Source: Naegleria gruberi (Eukaryota). From it: 64,000 nt of DNA. Shown here piece by piece: positions 3,741 through 53,808 of this stretch (its first letter is position 1; the number at the start of each line of letters is the position of its first letter). Position numbers and translations under genes: made by a program. The notes beneath the pieces were generated by a model. It was not told the DNA's origin and did not search any database. It saw only the letters and a program-made list of their open reading frames with translations. The stretch is taken from NCBI GenBank assembly GCA_000004985.1, contig GG738880.1; one strand, 5' to 3'.

Positions 3741-5354
3741 ATGAACACTTTGTGGAGACGATTGTCTATCCTGAATAAATCCTCTAAAATACTAAAATCA
3801 TCTTCATCATCAGCAACTTTAGTAAAATTAAATTCGGGAAGGAATAATTTTAGTACATCATCCAACAAAATTCTCTCAACACAACAAAATAATGATAATA
3901 ATTATACAGTTTTAAGTGTGGATACATCGGGACTTGTTCAAGAGACTTACGATAGTACAATAGTCAAAGAACATGAAACTCCAATGGTAAAACATTTAAA
4001 AAACAAAATTAAAGGAGCAGGACCAATTTCCGTATCAACATTTATTCAAGAAACATTATTGAATCCAATTTATGGTTATTATTACACTGCAAAGAAAACA
4101 TCATTGGACAATTCAAAACAAAATGTGATCGGAAGAGAGGGTGATTTCGTTACTTCACCAGAAATTTCTTCAGTATTCAGTGAAATGATTGGATTGTGGT
4201 GTGTAGATATGTGGACAAAATTAGGAAAGCCAAAGCAAATAGAACTTGTTGAATTAGGTCCTGGTAAAGGTACTTTAATGCACGATTTATTGGATAGTTT
4301 AGTTCAATCTAAAAATTCACCAACTATTGATGCTTTCAGACAATCTGTAAAGAAAGTTACAATGTGTGAAGCTTCAGAGGCTTTAAAGGAGGTACAAAAG
4401 GACAAACTCAAGTCATTTACAGAAACACACGAATTTAATTGGATTGACAGATTTGACAAGTATTCTGACTTTGATAGTAATATGCCTGTACTAATTATTG
4501 CTCATGAATTCTTTGATGCCTTACCTGTATATCATTTTGAGGTGAGTTTTAATTGAGAAGTTGAAAATTTAATTTTGGAATAGTACACTGAAAGAGGTTG
4601 GATGGAAGTATTGGTTGATATTGATGATGCAAAGGATTCACCACATCATTTCAAGTTTGTATTATCACCAGGACCAACAATGGCAACAGCATTTGTTAAC
4701 TTGGTTGAAGGAAAGAAGGATGTTGGTTCTATCAGAGAAGTTTGTGCAATGGGTATTGGATATGTTGAAAAAATTGGTGAAATTTTGAACAATAGAAAAG
4801 GTGGTTCATTAATTATTGACTACGGAAATGATTATCCTATGGGATTCACCCTTCAGGGTATTTATCAACACAGGTTTACTGAAACTCCTTTGGAAAAGCC
4901 AGGTGAAGTTGACTTGTCTACTTTTGTTGATTTTTCAAGTTTGAGGAAGGCAGTTGAAAAATTCAAAAATGTTAAGGTTTATGGACCTCAATACCAAGCA
5001 GACTTTTTACATCAAATGGGAATGGATGCAAGATTTGCCAAATTACTTCAAAATCCAAAACTTTCTCCTGAACAAGTTACATCAATGATAACAGCTTATG
5101 AAAGATTAACACACCCAACTGAAATGGGTCATCACTACAAGGCCATGGCTCTTGCCCATTTACCATCCAACAAGCTCACAGCCACAGGTTTCGATATTAA
5201 TCTCATTCCAAAGAGGGAAGCAACCCCAAACATGAAATCCCAAAGAGTTGCCCCAACACCAACCATTATTCATGGTAATAAGGAGGGTGAAACATCTAGA
5301 ATCAAACCATCTGATAAGAAAACTGTTCCAGCTGATGTTGGTATGTTCATATAA
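3741..5354 (+). CDS. NDUFAF7: NDUFAF7/MidA-family protein arginine methyltransferase (complex I assembly factor 7), mitochondrial
   Basis: Two exons, 3741..4541 and 4584..5354, joined by a 42-nt intron (GTGAGT..TAG). ELGPGKGTLMHDLL, FVTSPEISSVFSEMIG and [16 protein letters not shown]...YTERGWMEVLVDID align with human NDUFAF7 ([28 protein letters not shown]). Confidence 0.85.
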
Positions 5355-8034: not shown

Positions 8035-8106
8035 TTCTTTGAAGCACTTGCACATTGTAATTCAATTTGCTTTGAGAAATAATTTTTATTTAAAATTTAC
8101 AAAAAA

Positions 8107-9280
8107 ATGTTTAAACAAGTGCTTGGTTTCGGAAAGAGGAAAGGTTAATAATAATTCATTGGGAAAAATTGTAGGCTTGAGATGTTTTAGTACAAGAAAT
8201 AATTTACTATCATCAAATCAAAAGAGAATTTTGTTTTTTGGATCGGATTCATTCTCACTGGAAACACTCAAGTTATTACATTCGGAATTTGTAAAAACCA
8301 ATGAAGCTGATTTGTGTGTTCTTTGTCCACCTGATAGAAAGACAATTAGAAGAAATCAAGCCGAATATAAGGAATGTATTGTCAAGAATTATTGCATGGA
8401 AAATAATATTGATTATTTCCATCCGATTGAAACTGAAAAATCACCAGAGGAGAGAAAGAAAATTCAACGATTGGATATTACAGACATTCCGAGAGAGGAA
8501 CGATTATTTGGAGGAAATCAAGACAATTTTACTCCAAGCTTTGATGTTGGAGTGGTTGTGAGTTTCTCTTACTTCCTTCAGAAGGGATTATTGGATCAAT
8601 TTAAAACAAGGGATGGTCAACATTCTACCATATTTAATATTCACCCTAGTTTATTGCCACGTTATAGAGGACCTGCTCCTATTCATCACGCCTTACTGAA
8701 TGGAGATTCAGAGACTGGTGTCACAATTATGGAATTGGATGATAAGGAATTTGATATTGGTAATATTGTAAAGCAACAAAAATTCAACATTGAAAAAACA
8801 GAAACATTTACTCAACTTCATGATAGGTTGGCAGTACGTGGGGCTGAAATGATGATTGATACAATTCGTGCATGTAATTTTGATTTTACAAAAGTACAAA
8901 GAATCAATCAGGAAAATCTCACTAAAACCATTGCTGCCACTAGAGCTAAGAAGGTCAACTTTGCTATAGGTGAAATTTCTCTTAAGGATGAAAACGTATT
9001 TACCATTTACAATAAGTGGAGGGCTTTGGAGAAAATACACGTCCCATTCCAAAACACAAAGATTTTACTGAAACAATTAGATTATCCAGTAATTGATTCT
9101 TCAGAGGATAATACTCCAATAGGAACATTATATATTGATAGCGACAAATCTCTTTCACTCAAATGTGTTGGTGGTAAATTGAAAATCAAAGCTTTACAAA
9201 TGGAAAATAAGAAGGAAATGTCAGCAAATGATTTCATAAACGGAAATAGAGGAAAACTACCAATGAAATTATTGGCTTAA
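8107..9280 (+). CDS. FMT1: methionyl-tRNA formyltransferase, mitochondrial
   Basis: ILFFGSDSFSLETLKLLH, VVSFSYFLQKGLL and FNIHPSLLPRYRGPAPIHHALLNGDSETGVTIMELDDKEFDIGNIV are the Fmt N-terminal signatures; the C-terminal domain follows. The probable start is ATG 8107 (MFKQVLGFGKRK), a presequence-like exon joined through a putative 31-nt micro-intron 8144..8174 to GLRCFSTRNN...; the 5' end is uncertain (the track ORF starts at 8039 with a non-ATG codon). Confidence 0.8.
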
Positions 9281-18852: not shown

Positions 18853-21800
18853 TTATTGTTTGAGAGCAGAGCCCATTTGTTCTTTCAATTCGAATAATTT
18901 GTTCATTTGTTGATAACTGGATGTAATGAAGAAACGAGAGAAAGTATCATCCAAGTTAACCATCAAAGCACAATACATATCCTTTAAAGTCTCTTTCAAA
19001 TCATCGCTTTCAATCTTGCCACTTTTAATCAATTCGAATTGAGAATTGAATGATTTCTTGATGTGATGAGAAAAATTGATTTCCATTGGAGAATTAGTTG
19101 CCACAAAATTTTCATTCCATTCAGTAAATTCTTTTTCCAGATCTTCCATTGATGGAATATTTCCCCTATTAATTTCCTCAAGAATAGGATAAAGTTTCTT
19201 CCAAAATATTACATTTTCTAATGAATGTTCTGTCTTGGCAAATTGTTCAAAAACTTGACAAAGTATTGGTTGAATAAGAATATCCTTGATTTGATTATCC
19301 TCTTCCACATCTTCATTTCCAATCTGTGAAGTATAACCCTTTTTAGAAGCCAAGTATTCATAAATGGAAATAATTGAAACTAATCCACCAAAACTTAAAA
19401 TCAAAAGTAAATTATAAATCACTTCAAAAATATAGCCAACAATTAAATAGCTCTCTCTTGCATTGAGTGAAGTCTGTGAGGTGAGATAGGAGAAACCCAT
19501 TGCATTGGAAATTACATAGAACGCAATACTAATGAAAAATAAGGCAAATTCCTTTCTGAAGGAAAGATTGTCATTCACAATAAAGTAATTCTTGATTGGG
19601 TTAATGAAGAGTTTCTTATCTGTTTCTTTCAATTTGGAATTCAATTGAACATATCTCAATTCCATATAAATATCCACTGCATAGATAACACAAACAAGTA
19701 ATGAAATGGTCATTACAAATGCAAATAATGAGCTTGACATAATTTTTGTGTAGGTGTCTCCATCAATTGCACTCCTTCCCATCAGTGAAATGAAGATAAC
19801 AAAATAAATAATAATGAATAGAGCAATAACAGCATTCCACACAATAGAGAAAAACTTGTTGGTGAGAATGATCTTGGTCCACTTTAAAAAGGTATCAGTT
19901 TGAGTTTCTTTCTTTTCACTCAAAATGGCCATCAATTCATAAACATATTTGAATGTAATATATCTCAAATTGAACATTAAATAGTTCAATAATGAGAGGC
20001 AATAGAAAGTGCAACTAATCATTGTAAAAACGGATTGGACTATTGAGCTATCTCCACTTCTATCCAATAACATTGAACCAGGAATAATCACGCTAAAAAG
20101 CAGTTCAATAATAAGAGATACCAGGGCAAAGTAAGGAAGATACCATCTGCTCTTTGTTGGATTCCTTCGTGAGGTTATAATTAATCCAACAATTGCAACA
20201 ATAGCCAATACAATCAAAATTGAGCTGACAACAATTTTTCCAATGGTGAGAGGTATGCTACTGTATTTGGTAAATTGAAGGAATGCAGAGAATGTAGTGG
20301 TATGATTACATTGACAGTCAATAATACCATTAGATTGGTCAACCAGAGTTTTACATCCATCTGTTTTCCATAATCTTTCAGTTTCATCGAAATACTTGCA
20401 AGAAATAGTTAGTTGTGTGGAATTGGATTGGATGCTTTCTATGGTGCTCTTATCTACATTAAATTTAATGCTGATAGGGTTAGAGAGATTCGAAACGTTG
20501 AGAACTTGACCATTGGAAATATACTTGAGATCAGTAACCTTGGCCAAATTGACAAATGACGTTCCTGCTAATCCAATTAAATTATTGTAGGAATAGTTAT
20601 TACTCAATACAGATCCAGATATTAAGGAGGCCAACTTTTCAACATTTAAATAGGTAACACTTCCAATAGAAATATCTTTTAAAGTACTTAGCTCACTAGG
20701 AGTTACTACTGTGGTATTTCCATCAGAAACAATTGATTGATTGATATTTCTGGCAACTGACACTATAAAAGAAGCTGTAACCACTTGGAAAATACTATCT
20801 GATTGGGATGAAATTCTAGTGGCCACCATTACCGTTTTCTCAATAATTGAATTACTTTCTGAGCTAATATTGAAATTTTGAGACGAGTAGCAGTTAGAAT
20901 ATGCCATTAATACATTTGACAATGTTGATTCGTATGAAGCACTTGAGGTCTTTAAGGTATTCGAATCCAGTTGACTAAGTTCCTTGGAAATATTAACAGC
21001 TAAATTAGAGATGGTGTTCAGAATAGTCGAACTAACTTGAGATTGGGATGTAATGACAGACAATGCTTCTGTAACTTTGAGAGTTTCATCAGCATTGGAT
21101 GCATTTCTTTGTAAAGTTGAAATAGCGTTAGTGACAAGTTCCAAAACTTGAACAACATTAGTTGACTTGGAATAGGTATCCTTATTAGATGCAATGGTAG
21201 CAACATCACTAATTGGTAAAGTTTTGAGGAAACTTTCAGAAAAAACACTTTCGTATTCCATTACTTGTAAAGTATTGGAAAAGTCAACTGTGAATGATTC
21301 AGTTCCTAACGTGGCTGTTATAGAACATGAATAATTTCCCTTCTTCATGAACTTATCAATTGAAATAATCAATGGATTGGTGAATGATTGGATGTTCAAA
21401 GGTGTATTGAAATATGTGGTCAATTGATTTTTGCATTTCATTTCATAAGTAGCTGATTGGTAAACTGATTTGAATGATTCCGCATAGTTCAGTACTACTT
21501 TAACACTTGTATTAGTGTAAGTGACAGTTGAATAAAACTTTACATCAAATACAGGAGTCAGGCAATCTTTTCCATACCATCCACTTGTACAACCTGAAAT
21601 TACATACTTTCTAATAGTTGAATCTGCAACAATTATAGATCCATCATTAGTAATAGAAAGTGAGTTTGGCTGGAAGAGTATTATTTCATTCTTTCCTGGT
21701 GTTCCAATTATTGTTGAGATAGTATTCGATGATCTATACCATCTTCTAATACATTGATTGGATTTTTCTAAAATAGCCATATCTCCATTAGAAAAGAATG

Positions 21801-23630
21801 CAAAGTGATTTAATCTCATTGAATAAGTTTCTGGTGTTAGATCTGTTTCATTAGAATAAGTAATACAATCAGATTTTCCAAATAAGGTAATAAGTGATTT
21901 GTTTTGCATAATCTTGTACATATTACACAAAACTGAATCATAAAATACAATATTACCATCAATGGGATCTACTGACAAACGGTTAACAGATTTTCCAAAC
22001 AATGTATCGTTACCAACAAACACATCAAGAATTCCATTACTGTCAACTGTAAAAATTGACCCAACACTGCCAATAAATATCTTTGAATCATTCATCATAA
22101 CTGATCCTATTTTGATTGATGAATTAGAAGCCAAGCCCCCATATTGAACTTCATTATGAGCGTGGTATCCTCCAATTATTGTTGTCATTACTCCACTCAC
22201 ATCAATTTTCATCACTGCTGTAGTGTTGGCAAAGTACAGATTATCAGAGTTTTCAAACAATGAAATTGAAGTACCAACAGGTGAATTAATGGCAAGAGTT
22301 TCACCTACAACATAGGAAATGCCAAACGAATCTGTTCTTCCATTACCAGCAATAATAGTAGAAATACCATTCGTATATTTGTGAATGAATGGAACAGCAG
22401 CTTGGTAGGCATATCTCAACTCTCCACTCTGCTTATCCACAATAAATTGTGAAACAGTATTCAAATTGGTATTGTTTGCCAGAGTTGGCTCATTATTTCT
22501 CACAAAATATTTGGTTGAGCATTCTCCTGCAATAACAGCATTTGAAGTTCTATTGTAAATAAATCTTGTTCTTTCTGAAACAATTACATTACCAAATGAA
22601 TCAATCAAATAGGCATATGGTGAATTAATTCCTGTATTATTCAATACAGCTTGTTGAGCAGTATTAATTTCATAAGCTAAAATTGGTTGACCATTAGCAC
22701 TCGACATGTAGAGAGTTTCTCCAAATTTAACTAGTTTAGTTGGATAGAGTGTTGGATCATACACTACAGTTTGCATTTGTCTTGTATTCAAATCGATAGC
22801 TGTAAGTTTTCCAACAATTGCTTCGACCACAAATAATGTATATCCATCTAAAACCAATCCTTGAGGATTTCCAAGTGAAACTTTAGCAGCCCCAACCGTA
22901 TTAATATTACCATCACCTGCTACAGTGGTTATGTTACGATAAATCATATCATACATTCTCACTTTGTTATTGCTTGTATCTGAAATATACATGTATCGTC
23001 CAGTTTCGGATATAGCAAGGCCCATTACACCATTAAATTGAATTGTTTCCATTGGATTATTATCACCACCGTAACCAGAACTACCACAAACTCCAACAAA
23101 ATCCTCAATAATATTCGTCATCAAATTTACCCTTCTAACGCAACTGTTACCAGCATCTAATATGTTTCGAATAAAAACAAAATAAACATTCATGACATAC
23201 CTGCAATATAAACATATCCTCCAAACTCAACAATATCCAAAGGGTTTGCAAGTATGGCCAAAGTAGCCAAAACACCATTTCCATAATATCCATAGGCATA
23301 ACTTCCAGCAAATTGTGAAATTTTTCCATCACTTGAAATTCGTCTAATAACATCATGTCCAGAATCGACAATATAAATCGTATTATTTGAGCCCATTTTC
23401 ACAACCTCTATCGTATCCAAACATGCCATTTTAGCATCCAATCCATCGCCATACTTGTTGAGTGAATTCAATGACATGCCACCAGCAAGTAAAGTGGAAG
23501 TTGTTGAATATTTGAAGGAACCTGAAGGATTGGACTTGGCAGTTGTTGTTATCGAAAGGAGGAGTAACAACAGTGCATGTAGTAGTACAGCCACTGACAG
23601 CAGTGAGATCAATGACGTGGGATTTGGCAT
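18853..23630 (-). CDS. adhesion-GPCR-like receptor: signal peptide, NHL-type beta-propeller, GPS/GAIN motif, 7TM and C-terminal RGS domain
   Basis: Two exons, 23202..23630 and 18853..23157 (44-nt intron, GTATGT..TAG, phase 1). N-terminal signal peptide (LISLLSVAVLLHALLLLLLS). Repeated NHL-like blades (NTIYIVDSGHDVIRRI, YVYIADAGNSCVRRV, RYMYISDTSNNKVRMYD...). S/T-rich stalk. GPS motif CKYFDETERLWKTDGCKTLVDQSNGIIDCQCNHTTTFSAFL at about 20284..20410. Seven hydrophobic helices at about 19345..20275. RGS fold (ENVIFWKKL...INFSHHIKK...MYCALMVNLDDTFSRFFITSSY) at about 18905..19270. Confidence 0.8.
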
Positions 23631-34279: not shown

Positions 34280-35576
34280 ATGCTTCAACGTGACTTTGGT
34301 CATTCAAGTTTCGGAATCAGATCCTTATGCTGCAAATCAAAATTTAGAACCTTTATCTTTATTTTGTGGCTCTTCTTCTTTGTATTCTGTGGATATTATC
34401 TTTATTTAATCTCATCTATTCAGAATGTTAAGGAGGATGTGGAAGATACATTCAATGATGACATTAAATTGGATAATCATCAAACTCTCTCTGTCATTCC
34501 TATTCTAATTTTTACTTACAAGAGACCCGATTACCTAAAGAAAACTATTGATACACTGCTGGAGTAAGTTTACATTAAATCAATGAGAAAGTATTAAAGG
34601 AAATTAATGAAGATACATACCTGAATCTGGATTTGATTTACTCGTCTCTCAAGATGGATATGAGGAACAAGTGACAAAAGCTATCAAAAGATATGGAGGA
34701 AAAATTAAACATCATTTTCAAAGAGAGAGAAATGTAATCATGACTGATAAGAATCCAAACTTTTTATCATATTATGCTATTGCACAACACTACAAATTTG
34801 GAATTGATAGTGTCTTCAAAGCTGATGAAAAATATGATAGAATCATTATTTTGGAGGAGGATTTACAAGTTTCAAATGACTTTTTTGATTACTTTGGCAA
34901 ATTGTCACCTTTATTGGATAGGGATAGTTCTCTATTTTGCATTTCTGCTTGGAACGATAATGGAATGAGTGATTTCGTACAGGATTCTCCCAAAGTATAT
35001 AGATCTGACTTCTTCCCAGGACTTGGTTGGATGATGACACGAAAATTGTGGGAGGAAGATTTTGGTCCAAAGTGGCCATTAGGATTTTGGGATGATTGGA
35101 TCAGAGAAGGTCAAAATAGAAGGGGAAGAGCTTGTATAAGGCCTGAAATCTCTAGAACATTCACATTTGGATCTGTGGGAGGAGCAAGTTCCAATCAGTT
35201 TTCAAACTTCCTCAGTAGAATTAAATTGAATAGTGAAAAGGTTGACTGGGAACATTTTGATATTAATTCACTCAGAAAATCCAATTATGACAGGAATTTA
35301 ATTCAAGAAGTCAACTCGGCTACTCTTGTTAATAGTGTTGCAGAATTACTCAATAAGGAGAGAAGGAATGAGAATATTCGATTGATATATTCTAACAGTG
35401 AGGAGTATTTGGACATTGCCAGACAATTAGGAATTATGGATGATATCAAATCAGGAGTACCAAGAGGAGCCTATTTAGGAATTGTAACAGTAAAGTGGAG
35501 ATCCAATACTTTACACATTACAACCAAATCACTCAAACCAGTAACATATAGAAACTCTTCACCTTACAAATTGTGA
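34280..35576 (+). CDS. MGAT1: alpha-1,3-mannosyl-glycoprotein 2-beta-N-acetylglucosaminyltransferase (GnT-I, GT13), type II membrane protein
   Basis: Exons 34280..34563 and 34613..35576 (49-nt intron GTAAGT..AAG). N-terminal TM anchor, IPILIFTYKRPDYLKKTIDTLLEYIPESGFDLLVSQDGYEEQVTKAIKRYG, YYAIAQHYKFGIDSVF, IIILEEDLQVSNDFFDYF, FCISAWNDNG, DFFPGLGWMM, FWDDWIR....RGRACIRPEISRT and MDDIKSGVPRG align with human MGAT1 throughout. Confidence 0.9.
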
Positions 35577-38256: not shown

Positions 38257-38330
38257 GCCTTCCTAGCTCAGTTGGCAGTAGCGCTGTCCTAGTAAGACAG
38301 AGGTCTTGGGTTCGATTCCCAAGGGAGGCA
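38257..38330 (+). tRNA. tRNA-Thr (anticodon AGU)
   Basis: GCCTTCCTAGCTCAGTTGGCAGTAGCGCTGTCCTAGTAAGACAGAGGTCTTGGGTTCGATTCCCAAGGGAGGCA folds as a cloverleaf: 7-bp acceptor stem (one G-U), D-arm GCTC/GAGC-type, anticodon stem CTGTC/GACAG with loop CTAGTAA (anticodon AGT), T-arm TTGGG/CCCAA with TTCGATT loop; 74 nt, no intron. Confidence 0.85.
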
Positions 38331-39496: not shown

Positions 39497-40922
39497 GGCA
39501 AACTGAATTAGTTGACTGAATTATCAAATTCTAATAACTTTACATACCTTTTTGGGATTGAAGTATTGAGCAATAAACCAATTTGGTTTCTTTTACATTA
39601 GTTACATCGCCAATGGCAAACATATTTTTGAATGGTTGGTCGTTTTCATCTAAAACTTGTAAATGATTATTAACTTGGATGAAACCGTTCGAATCCAAAC
39701 TATTTGGAAATTCGTCTCTTAACATTTCAGATTGTGGTTTCAATCCAGTGCACAGAAAACAAACATCACATTCAATATCAATGAATGTATTCAATTGACT
39801 ATTCTGAATTCTAAAAGTTGTTGAATTTGATTGAGAAACAATCTCACTCCATAGGTGAATCTTTACATTTCTCATTGTTTCGAATACTTCACTAACTTTC
39901 TTACTTGCTTCTTCACTAGAAGGTTTCATAATTCTGTCAGATCTTTGAATAATATGAATAGTCTTTTCAGGATACTTTTCAGCAATAGAGCCTGCAATTT
40001 CACAGCCAACAAAACCTCCACCCACAATACAAATATCTTTCAGAGATGAGTTTCTGATAAATTCATGAGAATCGAGAATGCTTTGGGAATTGTAACAATT
40101 TACAAACTTGATTTGATTGTCAGAGCGGAGAGTTGGTAAATTGAAACGACATGTACATCCAGTACCAATCAATACGAAATCATATTCTATAGTTTCAGTG
40201 ATTTCCTCAGTTGACTTGGAATGAATTCGATAATGAATGAGGGATTTGTCAATTTTTGAAACCTTTCCAGCAATACAATTTGCTCTTGGAAGAGTGTTTG
40301 CATGATTAACAGATAAATGTTCAGCCACTGCCTTATCTTTGACCATAAAAGGAAAACCAGGAGCAAAATCCAAAGCTCCGTTGAGATCAATAATTGTGAC
40401 ATCAAATAAATCTCTGATGGTTTTATCCTTACATGCAGTGTAGCCACCGAAACCACCTCCAACAATAACTAATCTAGGTTTCATTGAAAGTTTAAATAGG
40501 TTTCTGTCAATTTTGGAAGAATCGTTTGGTTTGAAAAGGTTTAGAACAATTGAAACTAAACCTTGCAATGGATGAAATAGTCCTAAATTGGATGTTTCAG
40601 CAATGGGTTCTATCCAATTCATAATGCACATAATCTTCACTACAAGATAGAATTGACTTTCAGAAATGTCAAAAGTCTTTTCCATTAAATCCATCAAATC
40701 ACCCAAATAAAAGCAGTAATGTTGTAGTTGACCAAACCATTCAATTCTTCTTGAGTGCATTTTCAAACCACTTTCAAACCTTCTCATTCTGTAAATTGAG
40801 AATTCCTTCAAAACCTTGACAAACTCTCCATTCATTATTTCTTCAATTTGTTCTCTTGTCAAATTGGTTTCTGACTTTAAATATTCGAAACCCTTCTTGA
40901 TTACTTCTTGTTGTGTTTGCAT
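39375..40922 (-). CDS. AIF/AMID(FSP1)-like FAD-dependent pyridine nucleotide-disulfide oxidoreductase with an N-terminal extension
   Basis: Main exon 39548..40922 (track ORF 39540..40922): about 140-aa N-terminal region of unknown function, then RLVIVGGGFGGYTACK, ICIVGGGFVGCEIAGS and FAIGDVTNV (Pyr_redox_2). A possible 3' exon 39375..39502 follows a 45-nt GTATGT..CAG intron (adds VCQLLKQFVHQPSNEITNNIKPYSPRGYEQ...). That exon overlaps the 31-bp inverted repeat, so the 3' end is uncertain. Confidence 0.7.
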
Positions 40923-44942: not shown

Positions 44943-46844
44943 ATGTCTGACCATAACGACGAATTCTTCGATGAAGAAGAAGAAGAATTACACGAAAATG
45001 AAGCCTTCACAAGTATTTGGGATCTCGTTCCTGGTTATACCCAATCACCACTTGATTCCATGCTTGAAAATGAAGAGAATACAACTCTTGAGCAAGTTTT
45101 GGATGAAGATACTATCATTCAAGAATTAAAGTCAGCAAATCATAAAGTCATCGCTTTCCTTAGCAAGGACGAGAATATTGACAAGCTTATACAATACATC
45201 ATCACCGAAGAATATTTGCAACCAGGTCAAACATTAACATCAGCAGATCTTGAAAGAGAAGAAGAGGAATCACTTAAAAGAACTTACAAATATCCATTCA
45301 TCACTTCAGAAATTTTCAACTGTGAGAACGAAGAAATTATTATTCCTATTGTTAAAACCAAAGAAAGAACCATTAATCTCTTCTCCTACCTTCTTAACAA
45401 GGATGAAAACAAGACACCAAAGAATCCATCTCTTTCCCAATACTTTGTTAAAGCTGTTTCAACCCTTTTGCAAAAGTACTATAAGGACATTGTTGATTCC
45501 TTGATGGATAAGCACAGCGAAGAGTTTAACATTTTAAAGTTATTTTTCACAGAACACATTGGATTATGTGATATGGACTCTCTCATCTTGAGAGTTTTAG
45601 GATTCGAAACATCAGAAGATAGCTTTGATCAAGATGCTTTTGGTGGATTTGCTACACAACAAAGAATTCGTGAATTGTTCTTAATGAAGCAAAGAGGAAA
45701 TGATCAAGAACTCCAACAAAAGAGAAAGCAAGTTAGAGAGTGGGCACTTAATAATAACTTCTTTGATTTGATTTTGAAAAAGCTCGAACAAAGTTTAGAT
45801 AATGAAGAAGTTCAAAGAAATACCTTCAGTCTCCTCTCCCAAATTGTAGAAAAGGGATACAATAATTCCAACGAATTGACAATCACCTTGTTATCTGAAA
45901 AACATTTGAATACTATTTTGGATATTATTTTTAAGAATTTGAACTCCACGATATTGGTACACGCAATACCTTTCTTACGTGTTGTTATCTCCGCCAATGA
46001 AGATTCAGAGGAATCCGATGCTGACGAATCAGATGACGAGACTGTTAATAGGGGTTCTAGCCATATCTTCATTTCCAAAGTCATTCCAATAATTCTCTCC
46101 CGTACAAAACAATTCCTTTCTCTCCTTAATGATACAGAGTTTGTTTCTAACATCTCAAAGCTTGAACTTTCTCATGCTGTTTTGGATCCACCACTCGGTG
46201 AAACTAGATTGAAGATTGTTGAACATTTACTTACAATTTTCAAAGTTACACAATCTAATACTGAATATCAAAAAGAATTAGCTTCTCTAGGTGTTATGGG
46301 AGTTCTTATTGATTTATTCTTCAAATATGAATTCAATTCCATGCTTCACTGTCTTGTTTTTGATATGATCAAGATTGTTCTCACAGGAACTAATTCAGAA
46401 ATGAAGATGTCTCTTTTGGTTGATACTGAATTATGTCAAAAGATCTTAAAGGCCCATGAAAAGAATAAGGCTGTTATTCAAAAACCAAAGGGTGCTAGCT
46501 TAGGTTTGATGGGATTTGTCATTGAAATTTCTAATTTACTGAAGAAACTCAGTGAAATTAATCCTGATATTGCTAAGCATTTGTCCTCCATTGAAGGATG
46601 GAAAGAATTTACCTCTGGATTTTTACAAGAGAGAAATATCCAAAATGAAAAACAATTAGGTGGACCAGTTCCAATTGGTACTTTTGGAGGTGCTAGCTAT
46701 ATGGGAGAAGATGATGACGATGATGATTATGGTTATGATGAAGATGATAGTTCAGACTCTGATGAAGAAGTTATCGTAAGAAGAGGATCCGATTCAGACT
46801 CTGATGAAGATGATGATGGTGAAGTCATTAGAAAACACTATTAA
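44943..46844 (+). CDS. SAPS-domain protein (PP6/Sit4 phosphatase regulatory subunit)
   Basis: 633-aa single ORF. N-terminus FFDEEEEELHENEAFTSIWDLVPGYTQSPLDSMLENEENTTLEQVLDEDTIIQELKSANHKVIAFL matches the start of the SAPS family. Acidic D/E/S C-terminus. Confidence 0.85.
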   Translation: MSDHNDEFFDEEEEELHENEAFTSIWDLVPGYTQSPLDSMLENEENTTLEQVLDEDTIIQELKSANHKVIAFLSKDENIDKLIQYIITEEYLQPGQTLTSADLEREEEESLKRTYKYPFITSEIFNCENEEIIIPIVKTKERTINLFSYLLNKDENKTPKNPSLSQYFVKAVSTLLQKYYKDIVDSLMDKHSEEFNILKLFFTEHIGLCDMDSLILRVLGFETSEDSFDQDAFGGFATQQRIRELFLMKQRGNDQELQQKRKQVREWALNNNFFDLILKKLEQSLDNEEVQRNTFSLLSQIVEKGYNNSNELTITLLSEKHLNTILDIIFKNLNSTILVHAIPFLRVVISANEDSEESDADESDDETVNRGSSHIFISKVIPIILSRTKQFLSLLNDTEFVSNISKLELSHAVLDPPLGETRLKIVEHLLTIFKVTQSNTEYQKELASLGVMGVLIDLFFKYEFNSMLHCLVFDMIKIVLTGTNSEMKMSLLVDTELCQKILKAHEKNKAVIQKPKGASLGLMGFVIEISNLLKKLSEINPDIAKHLSSIEGWKEFTSGFLQERNIQNEKQLGGPVPIGTFGGASYMGEDDDDDDYGYDEDDSSDSDEEVIVRRGSDSDSDEDDDGEVIRKHY

Positions 46845-46953: not shown

Positions 46954-48584
46954 ATGTCATCAGCAGATATCTATGTAACGACTAGTGATTTGAAGAAGGA
47001 TTATATGGCCTTCAGTTTCATGTGTGATAGACAACCAAAGGAAGAGGTAATTTATGGTATTCATCACTTTATTGAGGGAAAGGAAAATATAACTACTAAG
47101 GAAGAAGATACTCCACCTCCTGCTTCCGAAAGAGAATATCAAGGAATTTCCGATGAGGAAGATGAACAAGATAATGAAAGCAAAAAACAGGCATCATTGG
47201 AACTTTCTGAAACTGATAAAAGAAATAATGTTTTAAAAAGGATGCAAGTGGATAGTTTTTCAGATCTTGACTCGGAAGAAGCTTCAAAAATTCAGACAGA
47301 AATTGTTATTTACAGATCGAATCCTCGGTTGGACATTGTGGATATGGTTTCTCTTTCGAAATCTATTACATTTGTTCCGTTTGATTTTGTTAATCTCAAG
47401 TATGTATTGAGTAGTTGTTTATTTCTAAAACATTTTTGTTTAGATTGATTTCGTGTGGATTGAGTTCGGCTTCTCTACGAGTTCTTGGCCTAGCCCTAAC
47501 TCATAAAAAGACTTTGAGATATTTGAGTGTGGAAATGAACCCTCTAAAAGAGACTCATGAGGCTAGAGATGATAAATTAATGCACGATATTCCAGCTCTT
47601 GGAAAGCTCTATAATACTATCCTTCCAAGAGTGAAAGAGGAACCTGAGGAGGAAAAGAAAAAAACAGTAAAAAAGGATAAAAAAGCAGAGGAAGTTTCAC
47701 CAGAAGTTAAATCATTCCTGGAAAAGTATTGTGGACCAAATTCGAGCCCATTTGCTCCATTATTCATGACAAGTGCCAAATATCTATCACTGAGAGGAAA
47801 CAATCTTTCTGATGATGACGCTGTTTGTATTGCGGAATTACTGAAAAGTGACAGTGAGATTTTCTCCCTTAATTTATGGGGAAATCGTATTGGAGATGTT
47901 GGAGGAGTAGCTCTCGCTAAGAGTTTGAGAACAAATCAAAAATTGCTTTCACTAAGCTTGGCTATGAATAGAATTGGAGATGAAACATTCATGGAAATAT
48001 GTAAAACAATGGCTCCTCTTGATATTTATGATGAGAATGAGTTCCAGACAATCAGAGAAAATGCCTATTTGAGTTTTTATGGAGCTCAAAATATACAAAG
48101 AGATCAAAGTACCAATTCTCTACTGATACCAGCAGTTCCTCCTCATTTACAACCTCCTGAAACTAATGATAAGAAAAAGAAACCACCATCCAAACCAGTC
48201 AAGGTAAATCCAAACGAGAAGGAACTGATAGAATGGGACAGTAAAACATCTCGATATACCTATGAAGAAGTGGTGGAACCACCAAAGACATTAGGTGTAA
48301 AAACTGCCTCTAAATCCAATTCCAAACAAAATGTTACAACTGTTACTGAACCAAAGGTCGCTGAGCCTCTAAAACCAATTTACAAAATACCTGGAAATAG
48401 CTTATTAAGAAATATCAATCTGAGTGCTAATATTGACGTAACAGATGATGGAGCTCAATACTTTGTTGACGCTCCAATAGGCATCAGTTCAAATCTATGT
48501 AGAATATCTCTCAGTGATACCTCTGTTTCATTGCCAGTCTTTGAAAGACTTGTCAGTAAACTTCTTTCTGGCAAGGAAGAATAA
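46954..48584 (+). CDS. leucine-rich repeat (RNI-like) protein
   Basis: Exons 46954..47399 and 47444..48584 (44-nt GTATGT..TAG intron, phase 2); RNI-type LRRs: LSLRGNNLSDDDAVCIAELLKSDSEIFSLNLWGNRIGDVGGVALAKSLRTNQKLLSLSLAMNRIGDE. Confidence 0.7.
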
Positions 48585-48669
48585 ATTTCACAAATATTGT
48601 AACGAAACTGCAATTTTTCTTACATTCCTAATAGGCAAGTTCTCCTTATAGAGAGAATACCGAAAAAAA

Positions 48670-49686
48670 ATGAAAAATTCATCATCTTCCTCACTACACT
48701 CTCTGAATTCAGAGCAGACAATCGGAAGACAACACGAAGAAGGTTTATCGACCAGTTCCGAACAGGAATTATATAATCGTCCCGTAGGAGGAACAGAATT
48801 TAATGCAGAGTTTAATAATATTAGTAATTTATCAATTGTGGAGATGGATCAAATGATTGAACATTTTAAAAAACAAATTTCCTATCTGGAAAAACAAAGA
48901 GAAAGAAAGATTACGGCCATGTGTGGAAAGAATGTTGGCTCGTCATTAAATTTCTCGTCCATTATTAAAATGTACATTCAGAAAATTGTGCCTAATGCCT
49001 TTTCCGAATCGAGATTTTATAATTTATTTATGGTGGAATTGTTGGAAATGGTAATAACTCAGACAATTGTTCTGTTTGGAGTTGTTTGTTTTTGGAGGGG
49101 TATTTGGGGTTTGGCTGATTTTTATATTCATTATGAGGATAATAATAGTACTTTGAGACTTGGGTGGACAACTTTAATGATTGGAGTGGTTGGTTCATTT
49201 ATTACTCAAACAGGTTCTGTTTTGGTTACTAGATTGGGAATATTAAATTTACTGGTTTCAAATTTTGAAAGTGATGCCAAATTGGAGACTGCTCAGGCAT
49301 CTTACTCTGCAGATAGAGGGACAACTTCTCAAGTTGGTAAGAAGCATGCAAGTTTGTGGATTCGTCTTGCCATGAAGCTCTATACCTATATTGTTGCCAT
49401 CTCAATTATTTTGTGTTGGAAGGGATCTTGGATGGTTATGGATGGATATTTTGAGAAATGGTTCAAAGATACATTTGTCACTAATTGGATTTCTCATATT
49501 ATTGCTGCCCTAGTTTTGATTTGGTTCTATACATTCAGAAGTGTTTTGTCACCAGCTTCTATGGATAGAGAAAATCATTTCGAATCACTTATTGTTTCAA
49601 AGTGGAGTGGTTTGTCAAGACCACTCGTCAAGGAATGGGCCAAGAGCTTTATTTCTAAAAACAAGGATTTTGCAGAAAATGCTTAG
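48670..49686 (+). CDS. hypothetical multi-pass membrane protein with an internal duplicated motif
   Basis: 338-aa ORF with ATG; two similar units, each with paired TM helices and a W(R/K)G(I/S)W....D(F/G)Y motif (FWRGIWGLADFY / CWKGSWMVMDGYF). Confidence 0.5.
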   Translation: MKNSSSSSLHSLNSEQTIGRQHEEGLSTSSEQELYNRPVGGTEFNAEFNNISNLSIVEMDQMIEHFKKQISYLEKQRERKITAMCGKNVGSSLNFSSIIKMYIQKIVPNAFSESRFYNLFMVELLEMVITQTIVLFGVVCFWRGIWGLADFYIHYEDNNSTLRLGWTTLMIGVVGSFITQTGSVLVTRLGILNLLVSNFESDAKLETAQASYSADRGTTSQVGKKHASLWIRLAMKLYTYIVAISIILCWKGSWMVMDGYFEKWFKDTFVTNWISHIIAALVLIWFYTFRSVLSPASMDRENHFESLIVSKWSGLSRPLVKEWAKSFISKNKDFAENA

Positions 49687-49704
49687 AGTTTTACCCATAG
49701 TGAT

Positions 49705-51067
49705 CTAGAGATCATCGACACTACTCTCTGCATTTCCTGCATTTCTTAGAATACTTTTCATTAATAAATCAAAGCTTTGAGAATCTTTTCCATTCACAAA
49801 CTCCTCTGCATTATTAAGAACCAACGTAGCTCTAGAATCCTTAACCATCTGATAAGGATGTAAGACATAAGATCTAATGGTATTTCCACCGAATTGGTTT
49901 GCTTCACTCTCAAGTCTGGCAACATCTTTGATTTCTTTCACTTTTTTCACTCTTTCTATTTCTTGGAGTCTGGAACGAAGCTGATTGATAGCTTGATCCT
50001 TGTTTTGATGTTGTGATCTTCCTGCAATACATTGAACTTTAACACCAGTTGGAATGTGTGTGATTCTCACACCAGATTCTGTCTTGTTGGCGTGTTGTCC
50101 ACCCTTTGTCGCTGTTTGAAGAGTAAACTAAATTATGATATTACGAACTTACCAGCCCTTATTGTGTCTATTTTCAAATCCTTCTCGGGCAATTGTTGAA
50201 ATATTGAGCTAGTATCGTCTCCATCTGCTGCAGGGTATACTCGAACACTGCTGAATGATGTCTGTCTTTTATGCTAATCGTGGTTGAATATTAAACTCAA
50301 TATTGGATACTTACATCGGCATTGAAAGGTGACAACCTGACAAGCCTATGGACGCCTTGCTCATGCTTAAGATATCCATAGGCATATCTTCCAGATATGA
50401 ACAATAAAGCACTTCTTATTCCTGTTTCCTTGAAAGAAGTGTCTTCCAATGTAACCTCAAAGGAAGATAATTCAGAACCTCTTAAACAATTTATATACAT
50501 ATTCAATAACATTTGAGACCAGTCAGATGCATCCTCTCCACCAGCACCCGTGTGAATTTCCAAATAACAATCCTTTGAATCATGTGGACCAGACAAAAAT
50601 GACTCAATTTCCTTTTTTTCTAAAACATTTATCAGATCACTCAACGATTTTTGAATATATTCAATCATTTCCTTATCATTTTCCATTTCAGAGAGCTTTA
50701 ATAATTCCTCATTATTGTTGATATCAGCAATAGTGTTATCAATAAAATTCAACTGATCTTCCAACATATTTTGCTTCCTAATAATATTTTGTGCATTAGA
50801 GTCACTCCAAAAATCAGGAGAACTTGTCACCTTCTTTAATTTTGAATATTCATCTTGAATAGAATCTCTATTCCAATTATGAATTATATTTGAATAGATT
50901 GTTCTTGCACTTTCAATCAGTGCATTGTTACTAATAATATTATCGGAACATAATTTAATATTTTGATGATAATTCCTCCTCGGAGCCTGTACACACTCCA
51001 TCAAGCTAAACCTATTTTTGCAGCAACAAGTTTTCTGCAATGATCTTCTAAGAATCAATTTGTACAT
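49705..51067 (-). CDS. organellar peptide chain release factor 2 (prfB-type, SPF motif)
   Basis: Three exons: 50315..51067, 50153..50273 and 49705..50111; two 41-nt introns (both GTAAGT, with ..TAG and ..CAG acceptors). GVHRLVRLSPFNAD (SPF is the RF2 tripeptide), HKRQTSFSSVRVYP, GGQHANKTESGVRITHIPTGVKVQC..RSQHQNKDQA and IRSYVLHPYQMVKD closely match bacterial RF2. N-terminal presequence-like region MYKLILRRSLQK... Confidence 0.85.
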
Positions 51068-51137
51068 TTTTTTAAATATAATATTTAATAAATATTATGA
51101 TGATGAATATTATAATAATAAATATTAATAATTATGT

Positions 51138-52094
51138 TCAGCTTTCTTCATCAGAAGACTGTTCACTACCATTAGAATTAAAATAACTATTATTAGGATT
51201 ATTTAAAAGTTTCATCAATTGAGCCAAAGTAGTAACATGTGAAACTTGAATAATGGCAAATATTATATCGAATAAACACAAATAAATAACAAATAATCCA
51301 GGATGATTATCGAATAGAGTAATAGATTCCGAATCAATTCTAATTGCTTGTTGACTTTCATATACTTTCTTTTGTAAAATAATATCCATAATTTGCTTCA
51401 CTTCTTGTTGATTCGTTTTGAATTTCATATCAAAGTGTTTCTCAATAATTTGATCCTGTTCTGTTTCAATAATATTTTGATCTGGAAAGTAAACTCCAAC
51501 TTTAACATTATCAAAAATCTTCTTCTTACTAGTGAAGAGATTTTCCTGCTCGAAAAAGTCAATCAATTCAAAGTATTCATTCTCCTTCTTGTAGAGTTTT
51601 GAACGTCTGTAGTAATTTTCATTGCTCACATAATTTGCAATATGAATATAGAGGAGAGGTAAAACAATGATCAGCACGAGAGAAATCTTCTTCTTCAAAT
51701 TCATATTCTTAAAGACTCTACCGAGGATGGTTGGTTGGGTGGAATGAACAAATGAATAGTACATGAGCATACTTTGGAAAACTCTGAGACCCAGAACGAA
51801 TATCGAATCATCAAGATAGAAGGAATAAATTCCCTCTATCAGAAGGATCCTATTGGTAAAATGTACAGATTCATAGAGTTCTTTTCGTAGAGTATTGTTT
51901 TGATTATCCATTGTGATGTGATTATCAAATTGATTAGAGGGATCAGAATTGGAAAGTGGTGATTCAAGACCTGATGATGAGTTTTCGGAATTATCTTCCA
52001 TGTCAACAATGTGATGATCTTCATCACTGTTTGGATGGAGAACAATTCGATGATTAATGGAGGGATGTTGTGATGACATTTTTTTGAAAATCAA
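51138..52094 (-). CDS. hypothetical membrane protein
   Basis: 318-aa ORF with ATG; acidic and S-rich N- and C-termini; at least three hydrophobic helices (ILLIEGIYSFYL, ISLVLIIVLPLLYIHIA, GLFVIYLCLFDIIFAIIQV). Confidence 0.45.
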   Translation of the reverse strand: MIFKKMSSQHPSINHRIVLHPNSDEDHHIVDMEDNSENSSSGLESPLSNSDPSNQFDNHITMDNQNNTLRKELYESVHFTNRILLIEGIYSFYLDDSIFVLGLRVFQSMLMYYSFVHSTQPTILGRVFKNMNLKKKISLVLIIVLPLLYIHIANYVSNENYYRRSKLYKKENEYFELIDFFEQENLFTSKKKIFDNVKVGVYFPDQNIIETEQDQIIEKHFDMKFKTNQQEVKQIMDIILQKKVYESQQAIRIDSESITLFDNHPGLFVIYLCLFDIIFAIIQVSHVTTLAQLMKLLNNPNNSYFNSNGSEQSSDEES

Positions 52095-52146
52095 TTATTT
52101 GCAATATTTATTTAATATTTAATATAAATAATATTTAAATTAATAA

Positions 52147-53808
52147 TTAATTTTTGGATGGTCTAATTGAAACTTCCAAATCATCATCGGATTCATCACT
52201 AAGAATTTCTGCCATTTGAACTATTGGTTTCTTGTTACTTGGTACTTCTGATCTATTTGGATCATTGGTTGTAAAGAATGGTAAAAAGTATTCCTTATCT
52301 AACTTGTCAATGGATGATTCTTCCTCATTGTGGTCCAGTGTTGGAATTTCTCTGGTTGGAGTGTTTGAATTATTGCTTTCAGTGTCATTTCTATACAAGT
52401 ATCTGATAAGTGGTGAGATACCTCCCCCAAAAACGAGAATTGACAATAACACGACCACAAGAGTTGTGGTTACTATGGTATTTTTGTATTCTGTTTCAGT
52501 AAGACTCAATGCAAGGGCAAGAGAAATAACACCACGCATTCCACACCATGTCAATATAAGTTGTGAATTTTTAGATATTTTGGCATCGAAAAAGTTATTG
52601 AGAATGTATGTAATTGGGAAAATATTTGCAATTCTTCCTAAAATGCAAAGAATAATTGCCAAGAAAATCATTCCAAAGTGGAATCTATGAGTGTAAGTAA
52701 ATGTTGCTAATCCCAGATATAAAAATACTATTGTCTCACAAATGTATGAGAACATCATTAGGGCCTGATCGATGGTAATACTAGTTTTCTTACTCAAATT
52801 GAGTCTCGTATAGTGACTGTTCACAATTGAGGATGATAGCAGAGCAAGGATTCCTGATAATTCCAAACCTTCAGATAAAAAGTAAGGGAGAACGGAGGTG
52901 ATAACCATTAGGGTAATTTCCAATGAAGGATATTTGTAAAATTGGAGGTATTTAAAGATTAATGCAGAAAGAAGAGCGATCACCACTCCAATAATTAAAG
53001 ATCCAAAGAATGACAATAATAAATGGTTCATAAAGCTAATGGCGGATGAAGAGAATGAAATGGTTTTCGCTGATGGAAATCTAGCATATGTATCAAAGGA
53101 TCTAAATAAAAGCATTGCTGCAACATCGTTCAATGTACTTTCTCCAAATACTAAAATAGATATTTTACCAGTTCTCTTCTCCCCAAAGTCTTCCTTAATT
53201 CCACTGAATACTGTTAAAGCAGCAATAGGATCCACACTAGAAATAAGACTTGCAAATGCAAATGAATCAATCCAAGGTATTATCCCAAATATTCCAATTC
53301 CTATACCGATTACTAATGTAGATATAATTGTTCCAGCTATTGCATACCATAGAATACTAATAATATTTCCAAAGAAGTTTCCTTTTGATAAATTATACCC
53401 AGACTCGAAAATAATAGGAGGAAGTAAAAAGAGGAAGAAAATGTCACTTTCTAATTTAAAAATGTTTCCACTTTCAATACCAAAGTAGCTAATAACTAAA
53501 CCCATTATCATTCCGATAGCTATTGTAATTATACTATCGGGAAGAAAATTAATTTTAAATTGAAGAAAGAAATAAGTAGCAAAGATGATGACCAGCATGG
53601 TTGCAGTTATGAGAAAAACATTCACCGATTCTTGCCTACTTTCGTTACTTGTATTTACAGGTTGTGGTGGTGTGGTTTCTGGTTTCTTTTCTGTAGCTGG
53701 TTTTTCTTCTTCTCCGAAGACAGCACTGCTTTGTACGAAGAGTATACAAGCAATCAGCAGTAGCACAACAAGAGTGAAGAGAATCCTCCTACTGTATTGC
53801 ATTGCCAT
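52147..53808 (-). CDS. Na+/H+ exchanger (CPA1/NHE family)
   Basis: 553 aa; 10-12 TM helices; FLFLLPPIIFESGYNL is the NHE signature (LLPPII.E.G); hydrophilic C-terminal tail. Confidence 0.8.
   Translation of the reverse strand: MAMQYSRRILFTLVVLLLIACILFVQSSAVFGEEEKPATEKKPETTPPQPVNTSNESRQESVNVFLITATMLVIIFATYFFLQFKINFLPDSIITIAIGMIMGLVISYFGIESGNIFKLESDIFFLFLLPPIIFESGYNLSKGNFFGNIISILWYAIAGTIISTLVIGIGIGIFGIIPWIDSFAFASLISSVDPIAALTVFSGIKEDFGEKRTGKISILVFGESTLNDVAAMLLFRSFDTYARFPSAKTISFSSSAISFMNHLLLSFFGSLIIGVVIALLSALIFKYLQFYKYPSLEITLMVITSVLPYFLSEGLELSGILALLSSSIVNSHYTRLNLSKKTSITIDQALMMFSYICETIVFLYLGLATFTYTHRFHFGMIFLAIILCILGRIANIFPITYILNNFFDAKISKNSQLILTWCGMRGVISLALALSLTETEYKNTIVTTTLVVVLLSILVFGGGISPLIRYLYRNDTESNNSNTPTREIPTLDHNEEESSIDKLDKEYFLPFFTTNDPNRSEVPSNKKPIVQMAEILSDESDDDLEVSIRPSKN

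What the first reader, a model, noticed from the sequence alone, without database searches (positions are those of the whole stretch)
49705..51067. Nuclear-encoded organellar release factor of the RF2 (SPF) type
The three-exon gene encodes a class I release factor with SPF (RLSPFNAD) and GGQ motifs and a presequence-like N-terminus. RF2 recognises UGA and UAA. Organisms whose mitochondria read UGA as Trp (animals and most fungi) have lost organellar RF2, while lineages with UGA-stop organelles keep it. Its presence suggests that the mitochondrial (or plastid) genome of this organism uses UGA as a stop codon. That constrains the taxonomic placement and argues against an animal or typical fungal origin. 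This fits the presence of GnT-I in the window.
Basis: partly seen in the sequence, partly recalled or inferred. Interest (0 to 1): 0.5.

Follow-up and report, generated by a model that had tools for sequence, protein, structure and literature searches.

The report
Naegleria mitochondrial RF2 release factor gene
This is the nuclear gene of the amoeba Naegleria gruberi for a bacterial-type RF2 release factor that most likely works in its mitochondria; the gene is real and intact but was already described in 2012, and according to that study the mitochondrial genome ends none of its genes with UGA.

Summary
On the minus strand at 49705..51067 lies a three-exon gene with two 41-nt GT..AG introns. 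It encodes a 426-aa class I release factor with SPF and GGQ motifs. It matches RF2 much better than RF1 by sequence and by predicted fold. The first ~45 residues are an unstructured, basic, acid-poor N-terminal extension.

The window is Naegleria gruberi NEG-M nuclear DNA. Orthologues sit in conserved synteny in N. lovaniensis and in an environmental Naegleria-like contig. All three share the intron just after the SPF loop. Non-synonymous change is far below saturated synonymous change, so the gene is under purifying selection. All named bacterial hits are alphaproteobacterial RF2. Naegleria has no plastid, so this is mitochondrial RF2 (mtRF2a).

The gene does argue against an animal or fungal origin. 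But Duarte et al. 2012 (PMC3472500) already list N. gruberi as having mtRF2a. They single it out as "RF2 without UGA": none of its 46 mitochondrial genes ends in TGA. Presence of RF2 shows that UGA has not become a sense codon. It does not show that UGA is used as a stop.

Already known; low interest.

The parts
50315..51067 (-). Exon 1 (aa 1-251): N-terminal extension, RF domain 1, most of the PCRF domain, ending in RLSPFNAD
   Evidence: Continuous ORF from the ATG at 51067, followed by GTAAGT; Pfam PCRF on aa 70-261
50933..51067 (-). Presequence-like N-terminal extension (about aa 1-45) with no counterpart in bacterial RF2
   Evidence: 6 K/R and 0 D/E in the first 20 aa. Full-length bacterial RF2 aligns only from about residue 46. 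pLDDT below 50 and no secondary structure for residues 1-43. The sequence is not conserved among the three Naegleria orthologues, but all three are acid-free over at least their first 23 residues; net charge over the first 20 residues is +6, +6 and only +2 (N. lovaniensis).
50531..50542 (-). Helix alpha-5 tip, GGED (aa 176-179). Bacterial RF2 has GGT(E/D) here. This element reads the first stop-codon base in solved RF2 complexes (my recollection of the structural literature).
   Evidence: Thr is invariant in 118/118 bacterial hits and is Glu in all three Naegleria sequences. The next residue is E in 101 and D in 17 bacterial hits.
50324..50332 (-). SPF tripeptide (aa 246-248), the RF2-type codon-recognition motif
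   Evidence: Read directly from the sequence. S246 and P247 are invariant in alignment A1.
50274..50314 (-). Intron 1, 41 nt, GTAAGT..TAG, phase 0. Its position is shared with N. lovaniensis and an environmental Naegleria-like contig.
   Evidence: Retention gives a stop at codon 256.
50153..50273 (-). Exon 2 (aa 252 to the first base of codon 292): HKRQTSFSS...IRA
   Evidence: The frame and the length of the SPF-to-TSF spacer match bacterial RF2 and the Naegleria orthologues.
50112..50152 (-). Intron 2, 41 nt, GTAAGT..CAG, phase 1. It is absent from the N. lovaniensis and environmental orthologues.
   Evidence: Retention gives a stop at codon 297.
49705..50111 (-). Exon 3 (aa 292-426 plus TAG): GGQ catalytic domain and the C-terminal part of domain 4
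   Evidence: Pfam RF-1 on aa 276-385; alignment to E. coli RF2 up to residue 362
50095..50103 (-). GGQ (aa 295-297), the peptidyl-tRNA hydrolysis motif, in the unusual context RAATKGGQHAN
   Evidence: G295, G296, Q297 and H298 are invariant in A1. The preceding SGA is replaced by AT(K/A) in all three Naegleria sequences.

Best explanation
This is the Naegleria gruberi nuclear gene for mitochondrial release factor 2 (mtRF2a). It descends from the RF2 of the alphaproteobacterial ancestor of mitochondria. The inferred mechanism is as follows. The mRNA is spliced at two 41-nt introns and translated in the cytosol. The basic, unstructured first ~45 residues direct import into the mitochondrion. The mature four-domain protein binds the A site of the mitoribosome at UAA (and UGA if one occurs) through the SPF loop and the helix alpha-5 tip. 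The GGQ loop then hydrolyses the peptidyl-tRNA. What is shown here: the gene structure, RF2 identity by sequence and fold, nuclear and eukaryotic context, orthologues, and purifying selection. What is inferred: mitochondrial import, codon specificity and catalytic activity. The published analysis finds no TGA-terminated gene in this mitogenome. So the factor's everyday substrate is probably UAA, and its presence keeps UGA from being captured as a sense codon.
For: Gene model and motifs. RF2 rather than RF1: prfB 346 bits against prfA 190 bits. PDB RF2 chains score 1e-65 to 1e-51 against 4e-40 or weaker for RF1. The 12 best Foldseek PDB matches of the model are all RF2. Organism: five flanking ORFs are exact matches to N. 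gruberi NEG-M proteins on a 416,450-bp scaffold, and two more match. Native nuclear gene: it has spliceosomal introns, and its CDS GC of 0.35 and GC3 of 0.30 equal those of its neighbours. The gene order SAPS, LRR, Fuseless, RF2, unnamed ORF (318 aa; 307 aa in N. lovaniensis), Na/H exchanger, DUF4795 is kept in N. lovaniensis, apart from two extra small called genes (187 and 121 aa) next to RF2 there, and partly in an environmental contig. The intron after the SPF loop is shared by all three. Selection: pN is 0.22-0.26 against pS of 0.72-0.76, which is saturated. N. gruberi keeps 65 of the 81 columns that are at least 95% conserved in 118 bacterial RF2. Ancestry: after the Naegleria hits, every named hit in the top 120 is an alphaproteobacterial RF2 at 39-48% identity. 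Targeting: composition and disorder of residues 1-45. Literature: N. gruberi mtRF2a is reported in PMC3472500.
Against: There is no direct evidence of localisation, and no trained targeting predictor could be run. The prfB score of 346 bits is below NCBIfam's bacterial cut-off of 370. Naegleria sequences differ from 118/118 bacterial RF2 at several positions. These include Thr to Glu at the alpha-5 tip and Gly to Thr two residues before GGQ, so unchanged specificity and activity are assumed, not shown. According to PMC3472500 there is no TGA-terminated mitochondrial gene. The only codon that would need RF2 specifically is therefore not known to be used.
Confidence: 0.85

Rival explanations
1. 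One reading: the gene is kept because the mitochondrial genome of this organism actually terminates some genes with UGA.
For: RF2 is the only class I factor that reads UGA, and across eukaryotes mtRF2a loss tracks loss of TGA stops (PMC3472500). The gene is under purifying selection in three Naegleria lineages. Heterolobosean mitogenomes use the universal code, so UGA is formally a stop (PMC7900873).
Against: PMC3472500 states that none of the 46 N. gruberi mitochondrial genes ends in TGA and lists it under 'RF2 without UGA'. I could not obtain the mitogenome to recheck this or to look for unannotated ORFs.
Confidence: 0.15
2. The factor is retained for a role that does not depend on UGA. It might be the main UAA terminator, or it might act in a release or rescue step, with the Naegleria-specific substitutions reflecting an altered function.
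For: Strong constraint despite no known UGA stops. Lineage-wide substitutions occur at positions invariant in 118 bacterial RF2, next to the decoding and catalytic motifs. Solved bacterial complexes show RF2 recruited for stop-codon-independent rescue by ArfA (E. coli) or BrfA (B. subtilis) (entry titles listed).
Against: SPF, GGQ and most conserved columns are intact, which is what an ordinary RF2 looks like. UAA reading is already part of canonical RF2 function, so no new function is needed. No partner such as ArfA is known in Naegleria.
Confidence: 0.1
3. A decaying relic: a gene on its way to loss after UGA stops disappeared from the mitogenome.
For: Duarte et al. propose that codon disappearance precedes loss of the factor. 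Some otherwise invariant residues are changed.
Against: Intact ORFs in three diverged Naegleria lineages. pN is about one third of saturated pS. The changed residues are mostly shared by all three, so they are old and fixed, not random decay. The model folds confidently outside the N-terminus.
Confidence: 0.03
4. Bacterial contamination or a recent lateral transfer of a bacterial prfB.
For: The closest non-Naegleria relatives are bacterial RF2.
Against: Two GT..AG introns are required for the reading frame. Base composition is that of the host genome. The gene is flanked within 18 and 70 nt by N. gruberi genes. Synteny and one intron position are shared with N. lovaniensis. It is only 39-48% identical to any bacterial RF2. 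There is no prfB-type internal frameshift: exon 1 is one open frame from the ATG to the SPF loop.
Confidence: 0.01

Closest known systems
mtRF2a, the mitochondrial RF2 of eukaryotes (e.g. Arabidopsis AT1G56350; also Dictyostelium, red algae, oomycetes, Blastocystis; an 'mtRF2' in the jakobid Andalucia godoyi), as classified by Duarte et al. 2012 (PMC3472500) and PMC7050145
   Same: Nuclear-encoded, full-length RF2 with SPF and GGQ, an N-terminal extension, and bacterial (alphaproteobacteria-like) affinity. N. gruberi itself is named in that paper as the only excavate in its dataset with mtRF2a.
   Different: Nothing categorical. In N. gruberi no mitochondrial gene is reported to end in TGA, which is one of the four exceptions to RF/genetic-code coevolution that the paper found (two of them 'RF2 without UGA' cases plus the social amoebae). 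The Naegleria proteins carry GGED instead of GGT(E/D) and AT(K/A)GGQ instead of SGAGGQ.
Bacterial RF2 (prfB), e.g. E. coli RF2, PDB 1gqe; alphaproteobacterial RF2 such as Sneathiella (P0003)
   Same: Same domain architecture and fold. 35% (E. coli, structural alignment) to 48% identity. SPF, GGQ and 65 of 81 highly conserved columns are kept.
   Different: Eukaryotic nuclear gene with two spliceosomal introns. About 45 extra N-terminal residues. No programmed +1 frameshift site. Score below the NCBIfam prfB cut-off (346 against 370 bits).
Naegleria lovaniensis XP_044546847 (P0001), annotated only as 'hypothetical protein' or 'peptide chain release factor domain-containing protein'
   Same: Orthologue: 62-63% identity, same neighbours, and a shared intron after the SPF loop.
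   Different: It has another intron after aa 170 and lacks the intron before GGQ. Its N-terminal extension is longer and unrelated in sequence. It has His where N. gruberi has Gln in KR(H/Q)TSF; Gln also occurs in 20 of 118 bacterial RF2.
Plastid RF2 (pRF2, Arabidopsis AT5G36170) and mitochondrial RF1-type factors (mtRF1a, mtRF1)
   Same: All are organellar class I release factors with GGQ.
   Different: pRF2 is of cyanobacterial origin and plastid-targeted. Naegleria has no plastid, and no cyanobacterial name appears among the top 120 hits. RF1-type factors carry PxT and match this protein far more weakly.

Membership tests
Class I bacterial-type release factor, RF2 subfamily | PCRF domain followed by RF-1 (GGQ) domain | tested here: met
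   Pfam PCRF 1e-43 (aa 70-261) and RF-1 1.6e-31 (aa 276-385)
Class I bacterial-type release factor, RF2 subfamily | SPF tripeptide in the codon-recognition loop (not PxT) | tested here: met
   S246-P247-F248 at 50332..50324. It aligns with SPF of E. coli RF2.
Class I bacterial-type release factor, RF2 subfamily | GGQ catalytic tripeptide | tested here: met
   G295-G296-Q297 at 50103..50095, invariant in A1. The flanking SGA is replaced by ATK.
Class I bacterial-type release factor, RF2 subfamily | Scores as RF2 rather than RF1 with family profiles and solved structures | tested here: met
   prfB 346 bits against prfA 190 bits, though below the curated prfB cut-off of 370. RF2 chains lead both the sequence search and the fold search.
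Class I bacterial-type release factor, RF2 subfamily | Conserved helix alpha-5 tip GGT(E/D) | tested here: inconclusive
   Naegleria has GGED. Thr is invariant in 118 bacterial hits but is Glu here. Asp in place of Glu occurs in 17 of 118 bacteria. The functional effect is unknown.
Class I bacterial-type release factor, RF2 subfamily | UAA/UGA-dependent peptidyl-tRNA hydrolysis on the ribosome | not testable with these tools
   Needs a biochemical release assay or complementation of an E. coli prfB mutant
mtRF2a (mitochondrial RF2 of eukaryotes) | Encoded in the nuclear genome of a eukaryote | tested here: met
   N. gruberi scaffold, two spliceosomal introns, host-like composition, synteny with N. 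lovaniensis
mtRF2a (mitochondrial RF2 of eukaryotes) | N-terminal mitochondrial targeting presequence | tested here: inconclusive
   About 45 extra residues, net charge +6 in the first 20, no acidic residue before position 24, predicted unstructured. This rests on composition only; TargetP and MitoFates were not available.
mtRF2a (mitochondrial RF2 of eukaryotes) | Alphaproteobacterial rather than cyanobacterial affinity | tested here: met
   All named bacterial hits in the top 120 are Alphaproteobacteria. This is similarity ranking only; no tree with cyanobacterial or plant sequences was built.
mtRF2a (mitochondrial RF2 of eukaryotes) | Protein located in mitochondria | not testable with these tools
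   No localisation or proteome data were found in the papers searched.
mtRF2a (mitochondrial RF2 of eukaryotes) | Co-occurrence with TGA-terminated mitochondrial genes (a usual correlate, not strictly defining) | not tested
   The mitogenome could not be fetched. The literature says it is not met: 0 of 46 N. gruberi mitochondrial genes end in TGA (PMC3472500).

The most novel reading that the evidence does not exclude
Naegleria keeps mtRF2a under strong purifying selection although no mitochondrial gene is known to end in UGA. The protein also carries genus-wide substitutions at positions invariant in bacterial RF2, beside both the decoding tip (GGT to GGE) and the catalytic loop (SGAGGQ to AT(K/A)GGQ). 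The most novel reading not excluded is that it has an essential role other than UGA termination. It could be the principal UAA terminator, have an altered codon range, or act in a rescue-type release. Alternatively, the Naegleria mitogenome may contain functional UGA-terminated ORFs that annotation has missed.
Probability: 0.2. Interest if true: 0.4.

Novelty: already known. Interest (0 to 1): 0.15.

Why it matters
The practical value is as a caution. The presence of an organellar RF2 gene shows that UGA has not been reassigned to tryptophan. It does not show that UGA is used as a stop. Naegleria gruberi is a published example of "RF2 without UGA", which Duarte et al. took as support for the codon-disappearance route to code change: the stop codon vanishes first and the factor is lost later. 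The gene also correctly flags the window as coming from neither an animal nor a fungus. Nothing here changes current understanding.

Tried and rejected
1. I suspected that Gln255 (KRQTSF, where most RF2 have His after the SPF loop) was an unusual change in the decoding pocket. I rejected this: Gln occurs in 20 of 118 bacterial RF2 hits.

2. An alternative in-frame acceptor for intron 1 (a 53-nt intron that deletes HKRQ) was rejected. It shortens the SPF-to-TSF spacer, which has the same length in bacteria and in both Naegleria orthologues.

3. I looked for the public N. gruberi protein of this gene. The homologue search returned no N. gruberi entry. The spliced model and four alternatives (start at Met23, the alternative acceptor, both combined, and the exon-1 ORF alone) are not in the collection as exact sequences. 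The accession numbers of the flanking genes leave exactly one free slot per intervening gene (D2VLD1 to D2VLD4 between D2VLD0 and D2VLD5). The gene is therefore probably annotated, but this is an inference.

4. I tried to verify the mitochondrial stop-codon usage independently. No tool gave access to the Naegleria mitogenome. Herman et al. 2013 (PMC3594069) is not held. The Acrasis, BB2/Pharyngomonas and N. fowleri AY27 mitogenome papers say nothing about TGA.

5. A regex search for the GnT-I motif EDD..PDF found nothing. A Pfam scan then located GnT-I.

6. An Rfam scan of 48000..53000 found no RNA family match, and a tRNA scan of the whole window found no tRNA in or near the gene.

7. dS could not be estimated because synonymous sites are saturated, so only pN against pS is reported.

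Full report
**Observation.** The minus strand between 49705 and 51067 carries a gene of three exons: 51067..50315, 50273..50153 and 50111..49705. The exons are separated by two 41-nt introns, both starting GTAAGT and ending AG. Splicing gives a 1281-nt CDS and a 426-aa protein that ends at a TAG. If either intron is retained, the frame runs into a stop at codon 256 or 297. Introns of this size are normal for this window. For example, a 42-nt GTGAGT..AG intron at 4542..4583 joins the two halves of a Methyltransf_28 gene. RLSPFNAD closes exon 1, and GGQ lies seven codons into exon 3.

**What the protein is.** Pfam finds a PCRF domain (1e-43) followed by an RF-1 domain (1.6e-31). NCBIfam prefers prfB (346 bits) to prfA (190 bits), although 346 is below the 370-bit cut-off curated for bacterial prfB. 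Against the PDB, RF2 chains score 1e-65 to 1e-51 and RF1 chains 4e-40 or weaker. An AlphaFold model built from alignment A1 has mean pLDDT 74.9. Its 12 best Foldseek matches in the PDB are all RF2. In an alignment with 118 bacterial RF2 hits, 81 columns are at least 95% conserved in the bacteria. N. gruberi keeps 65 of these.

**Which organism and which organelle.**
- Five neighbouring ORFs are exact matches to Naegleria gruberi NEG-M proteins on a 416,450-bp scaffold. Examples are XP_002675031 at 44943..46844 and XP_002675114 at 52147..53808. Two more ORFs match.
- The best homologue of the release factor is N. lovaniensis XP_044546847, at 63% identity. Next comes a gene fragment from an ENA metagenome. 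After that come only bacterial RF2 at 39-48% identity, and every one that carries a name is alphaproteobacterial.
- Naegleria has mitochondria and no plastid (general knowledge), so the organelle in question is the mitochondrion.

**It is a native, maintained nuclear gene.**
- CDS GC (0.35) and GC3 (0.30) match the neighbouring genes.
- In N. lovaniensis (L001) the orthologue sits in the same gene order, apart from two extra small called genes (187 and 121 aa) next to RF2: SAPS, LRR, Fuseless, RF2, an unnamed ORF (318 aa here, 307 aa there), Na/H exchanger, DUF4795. The environmental contig L002 keeps the Fuseless neighbour.
- All three genes have an intron immediately after SPF(N/D)A(D/A). 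The second N. gruberi intron is private to it, and N. lovaniensis has a different extra intron.
- Pairwise Nei-Gojobori counts give pN of 0.22-0.26 against pS of 0.72-0.76, which is saturated. This indicates long-standing purifying selection.
- Most departures from the bacterial consensus are shared by the three Naegleria sequences. Examples are GGT(E/D) to GGED at the helix alpha-5 tip and SGAGGQ to AT(K/A)GGQ. They are therefore old, fixed differences rather than decay.
- A His-to-Gln change after the SPF loop looked notable at first. It also occurs in 20 of 118 bacterial RF2.

**N-terminus.**
- Full-length bacterial RF2 aligns only from about residue 46.
- The first 20 residues contain six Lys/Arg and no Asp/Glu, and the first acidic residue is at position 24.
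- Residues 1-43 are predicted unstructured, with pLDDT below 50.
- The orthologues have extensions that are unrelated in sequence but acid-free over at least their first 23 residues; net charge over the first 20 residues is +6 in the environmental sequence and only +2 in N. lovaniensis.
- This fits a mitochondrial presequence. It is compositional evidence only, because no trained predictor and no localisation data were available.

**Mechanism.** The best-supported account is canonical. The protein is made in the cytosol and imported through the N-terminal extension. It then acts on the mitoribosome as RF2: the SPF loop and the alpha-5 tip read U-(A/G)-A, and GGQ triggers peptide release. The sequence and fold are shown here. 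Import, specificity and catalysis are inferred from homology.

**Comparison with what is known.** Duarte et al. 2012 (Mol Biol Evol 29:3497; PMC3472500) define mtRF2a. [quoted passage not shown] They list it under "RF2 without UGA" and argue that the stop codon tends to disappear before its factor is lost. Heterolobosean mitogenomes are annotated with the universal code (PMC7900873), so UGA is not read as Trp there. A jakobid, Andalucia godoyi, also has an mtRF2 (PMC7050145). In labyrinthuleans a change of the SPF serine is linked to a new stop codon (PMC12574857). That serine is intact here.

**Verdict on the interpretation.**
- The identification as a nuclear-encoded organellar RF2 is right.
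- The taxonomic inference (not an animal, not a typical fungus) is right.
- The main inference, that the organelle genome uses UGA as a stop, is contradicted by the published analysis of this very organism. The weaker statement survives: UGA has not been reassigned to a sense codon.
- I could not recount the mitogenome myself (see the list of things tried).
- GnT-I is indeed in the window at 34671..35573 (Pfam GNT-I 5e-96). It says nothing about the mitochondrial code.

**Novelty and interest.** The gene and its odd relationship to UGA usage are already in the literature, so this is already known. The small additions made here are:
- the exact gene model;
- the shared intron position and the synteny within Naegleria;
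- the evidence for purifying selection;
- the genus-wide substitutions next to the decoding and catalytic motifs.

These keep open, at low probability, the idea that the factor is retained for something other than UGA termination.

Noticed in passing
window 50531..50542 and 50104..50112 (minus strand); L001 and L002 orthologues: All three Naegleria RF2 proteins have Glu where 118/118 bacterial RF2 hits have Thr (GGT(E/D) becomes GGED at the helix alpha-5 tip). They also have Thr where 118/118 have Gly, two residues before GGQ (SGAGGQ becomes AT(K/A)GGQ). The changes are conserved within the genus; their functional meaning is unknown.
   Followed up: partly
window 49705..51067: The homologue search returned no N. 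gruberi entry for this gene, and five candidate models are not in the protein collection as exact sequences. Neighbouring N. gruberi proteins are present. The public gene model, if there is one, may differ from the model supported by homology, or may be missing from the collection.
   Followed up: partly
window 8039..9277 +: An ORF with Formyl_trans_N (5.9e-24) and Formyl_trans_C (8.9e-12) domains, which is methionyl-tRNA formyltransferase-like. It would be another bacterial-type component of organellar translation in the same window. The domain match starts at profile position 79, so an upstream exon is likely.
   Followed up: no
window 3723..5354 +: A Methyltransf_28 (NDUFAF7-like) gene split into two ORFs by a 42-nt GTGAGT..AG intron at 4542..4583. 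This shows that introns of about 40 nt are typical of this genome.
   Followed up: partly
window 34671..35573 + (the gene probably starts near 34281): A GnT-I family glycosyltransferase (Pfam GNT-I 5.2e-96, profile positions 140-423). The N-terminal part lies in at least one upstream exon.
   Followed up: partly
L002 (ENA ERZ27315067, contig k141_2043171, 5552 bp): A metagenome contig from a Naegleria-like organism (GC 0.39). It carries the RF2 orthologue (66% identical to N. gruberi) with a 38-nt intron at the same position and a Fuseless-family neighbour. Prokaryotic gene calling split it into two ORFs.
   Followed up: partly
window 18856..23193 -: A 1446-aa single-ORF protein combining a GPS (GPCR proteolysis site) motif with a C-terminal RGS domain, that is, an adhesion-GPCR-like receptor fused to a regulator of G-protein signalling.
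   Followed up: no
window 38257..38330 +: The only tRNA gene in the window: tRNA-Thr with anticodon AGT.
   Followed up: no
window 39543..40922 -: A 460-aa Pyr_redox_2 flavoprotein (1.2e-32), identical to N. gruberi XP_002675108. It may be an NDH2- or AIF-type mitochondrial oxidoreductase.
   Followed up: no
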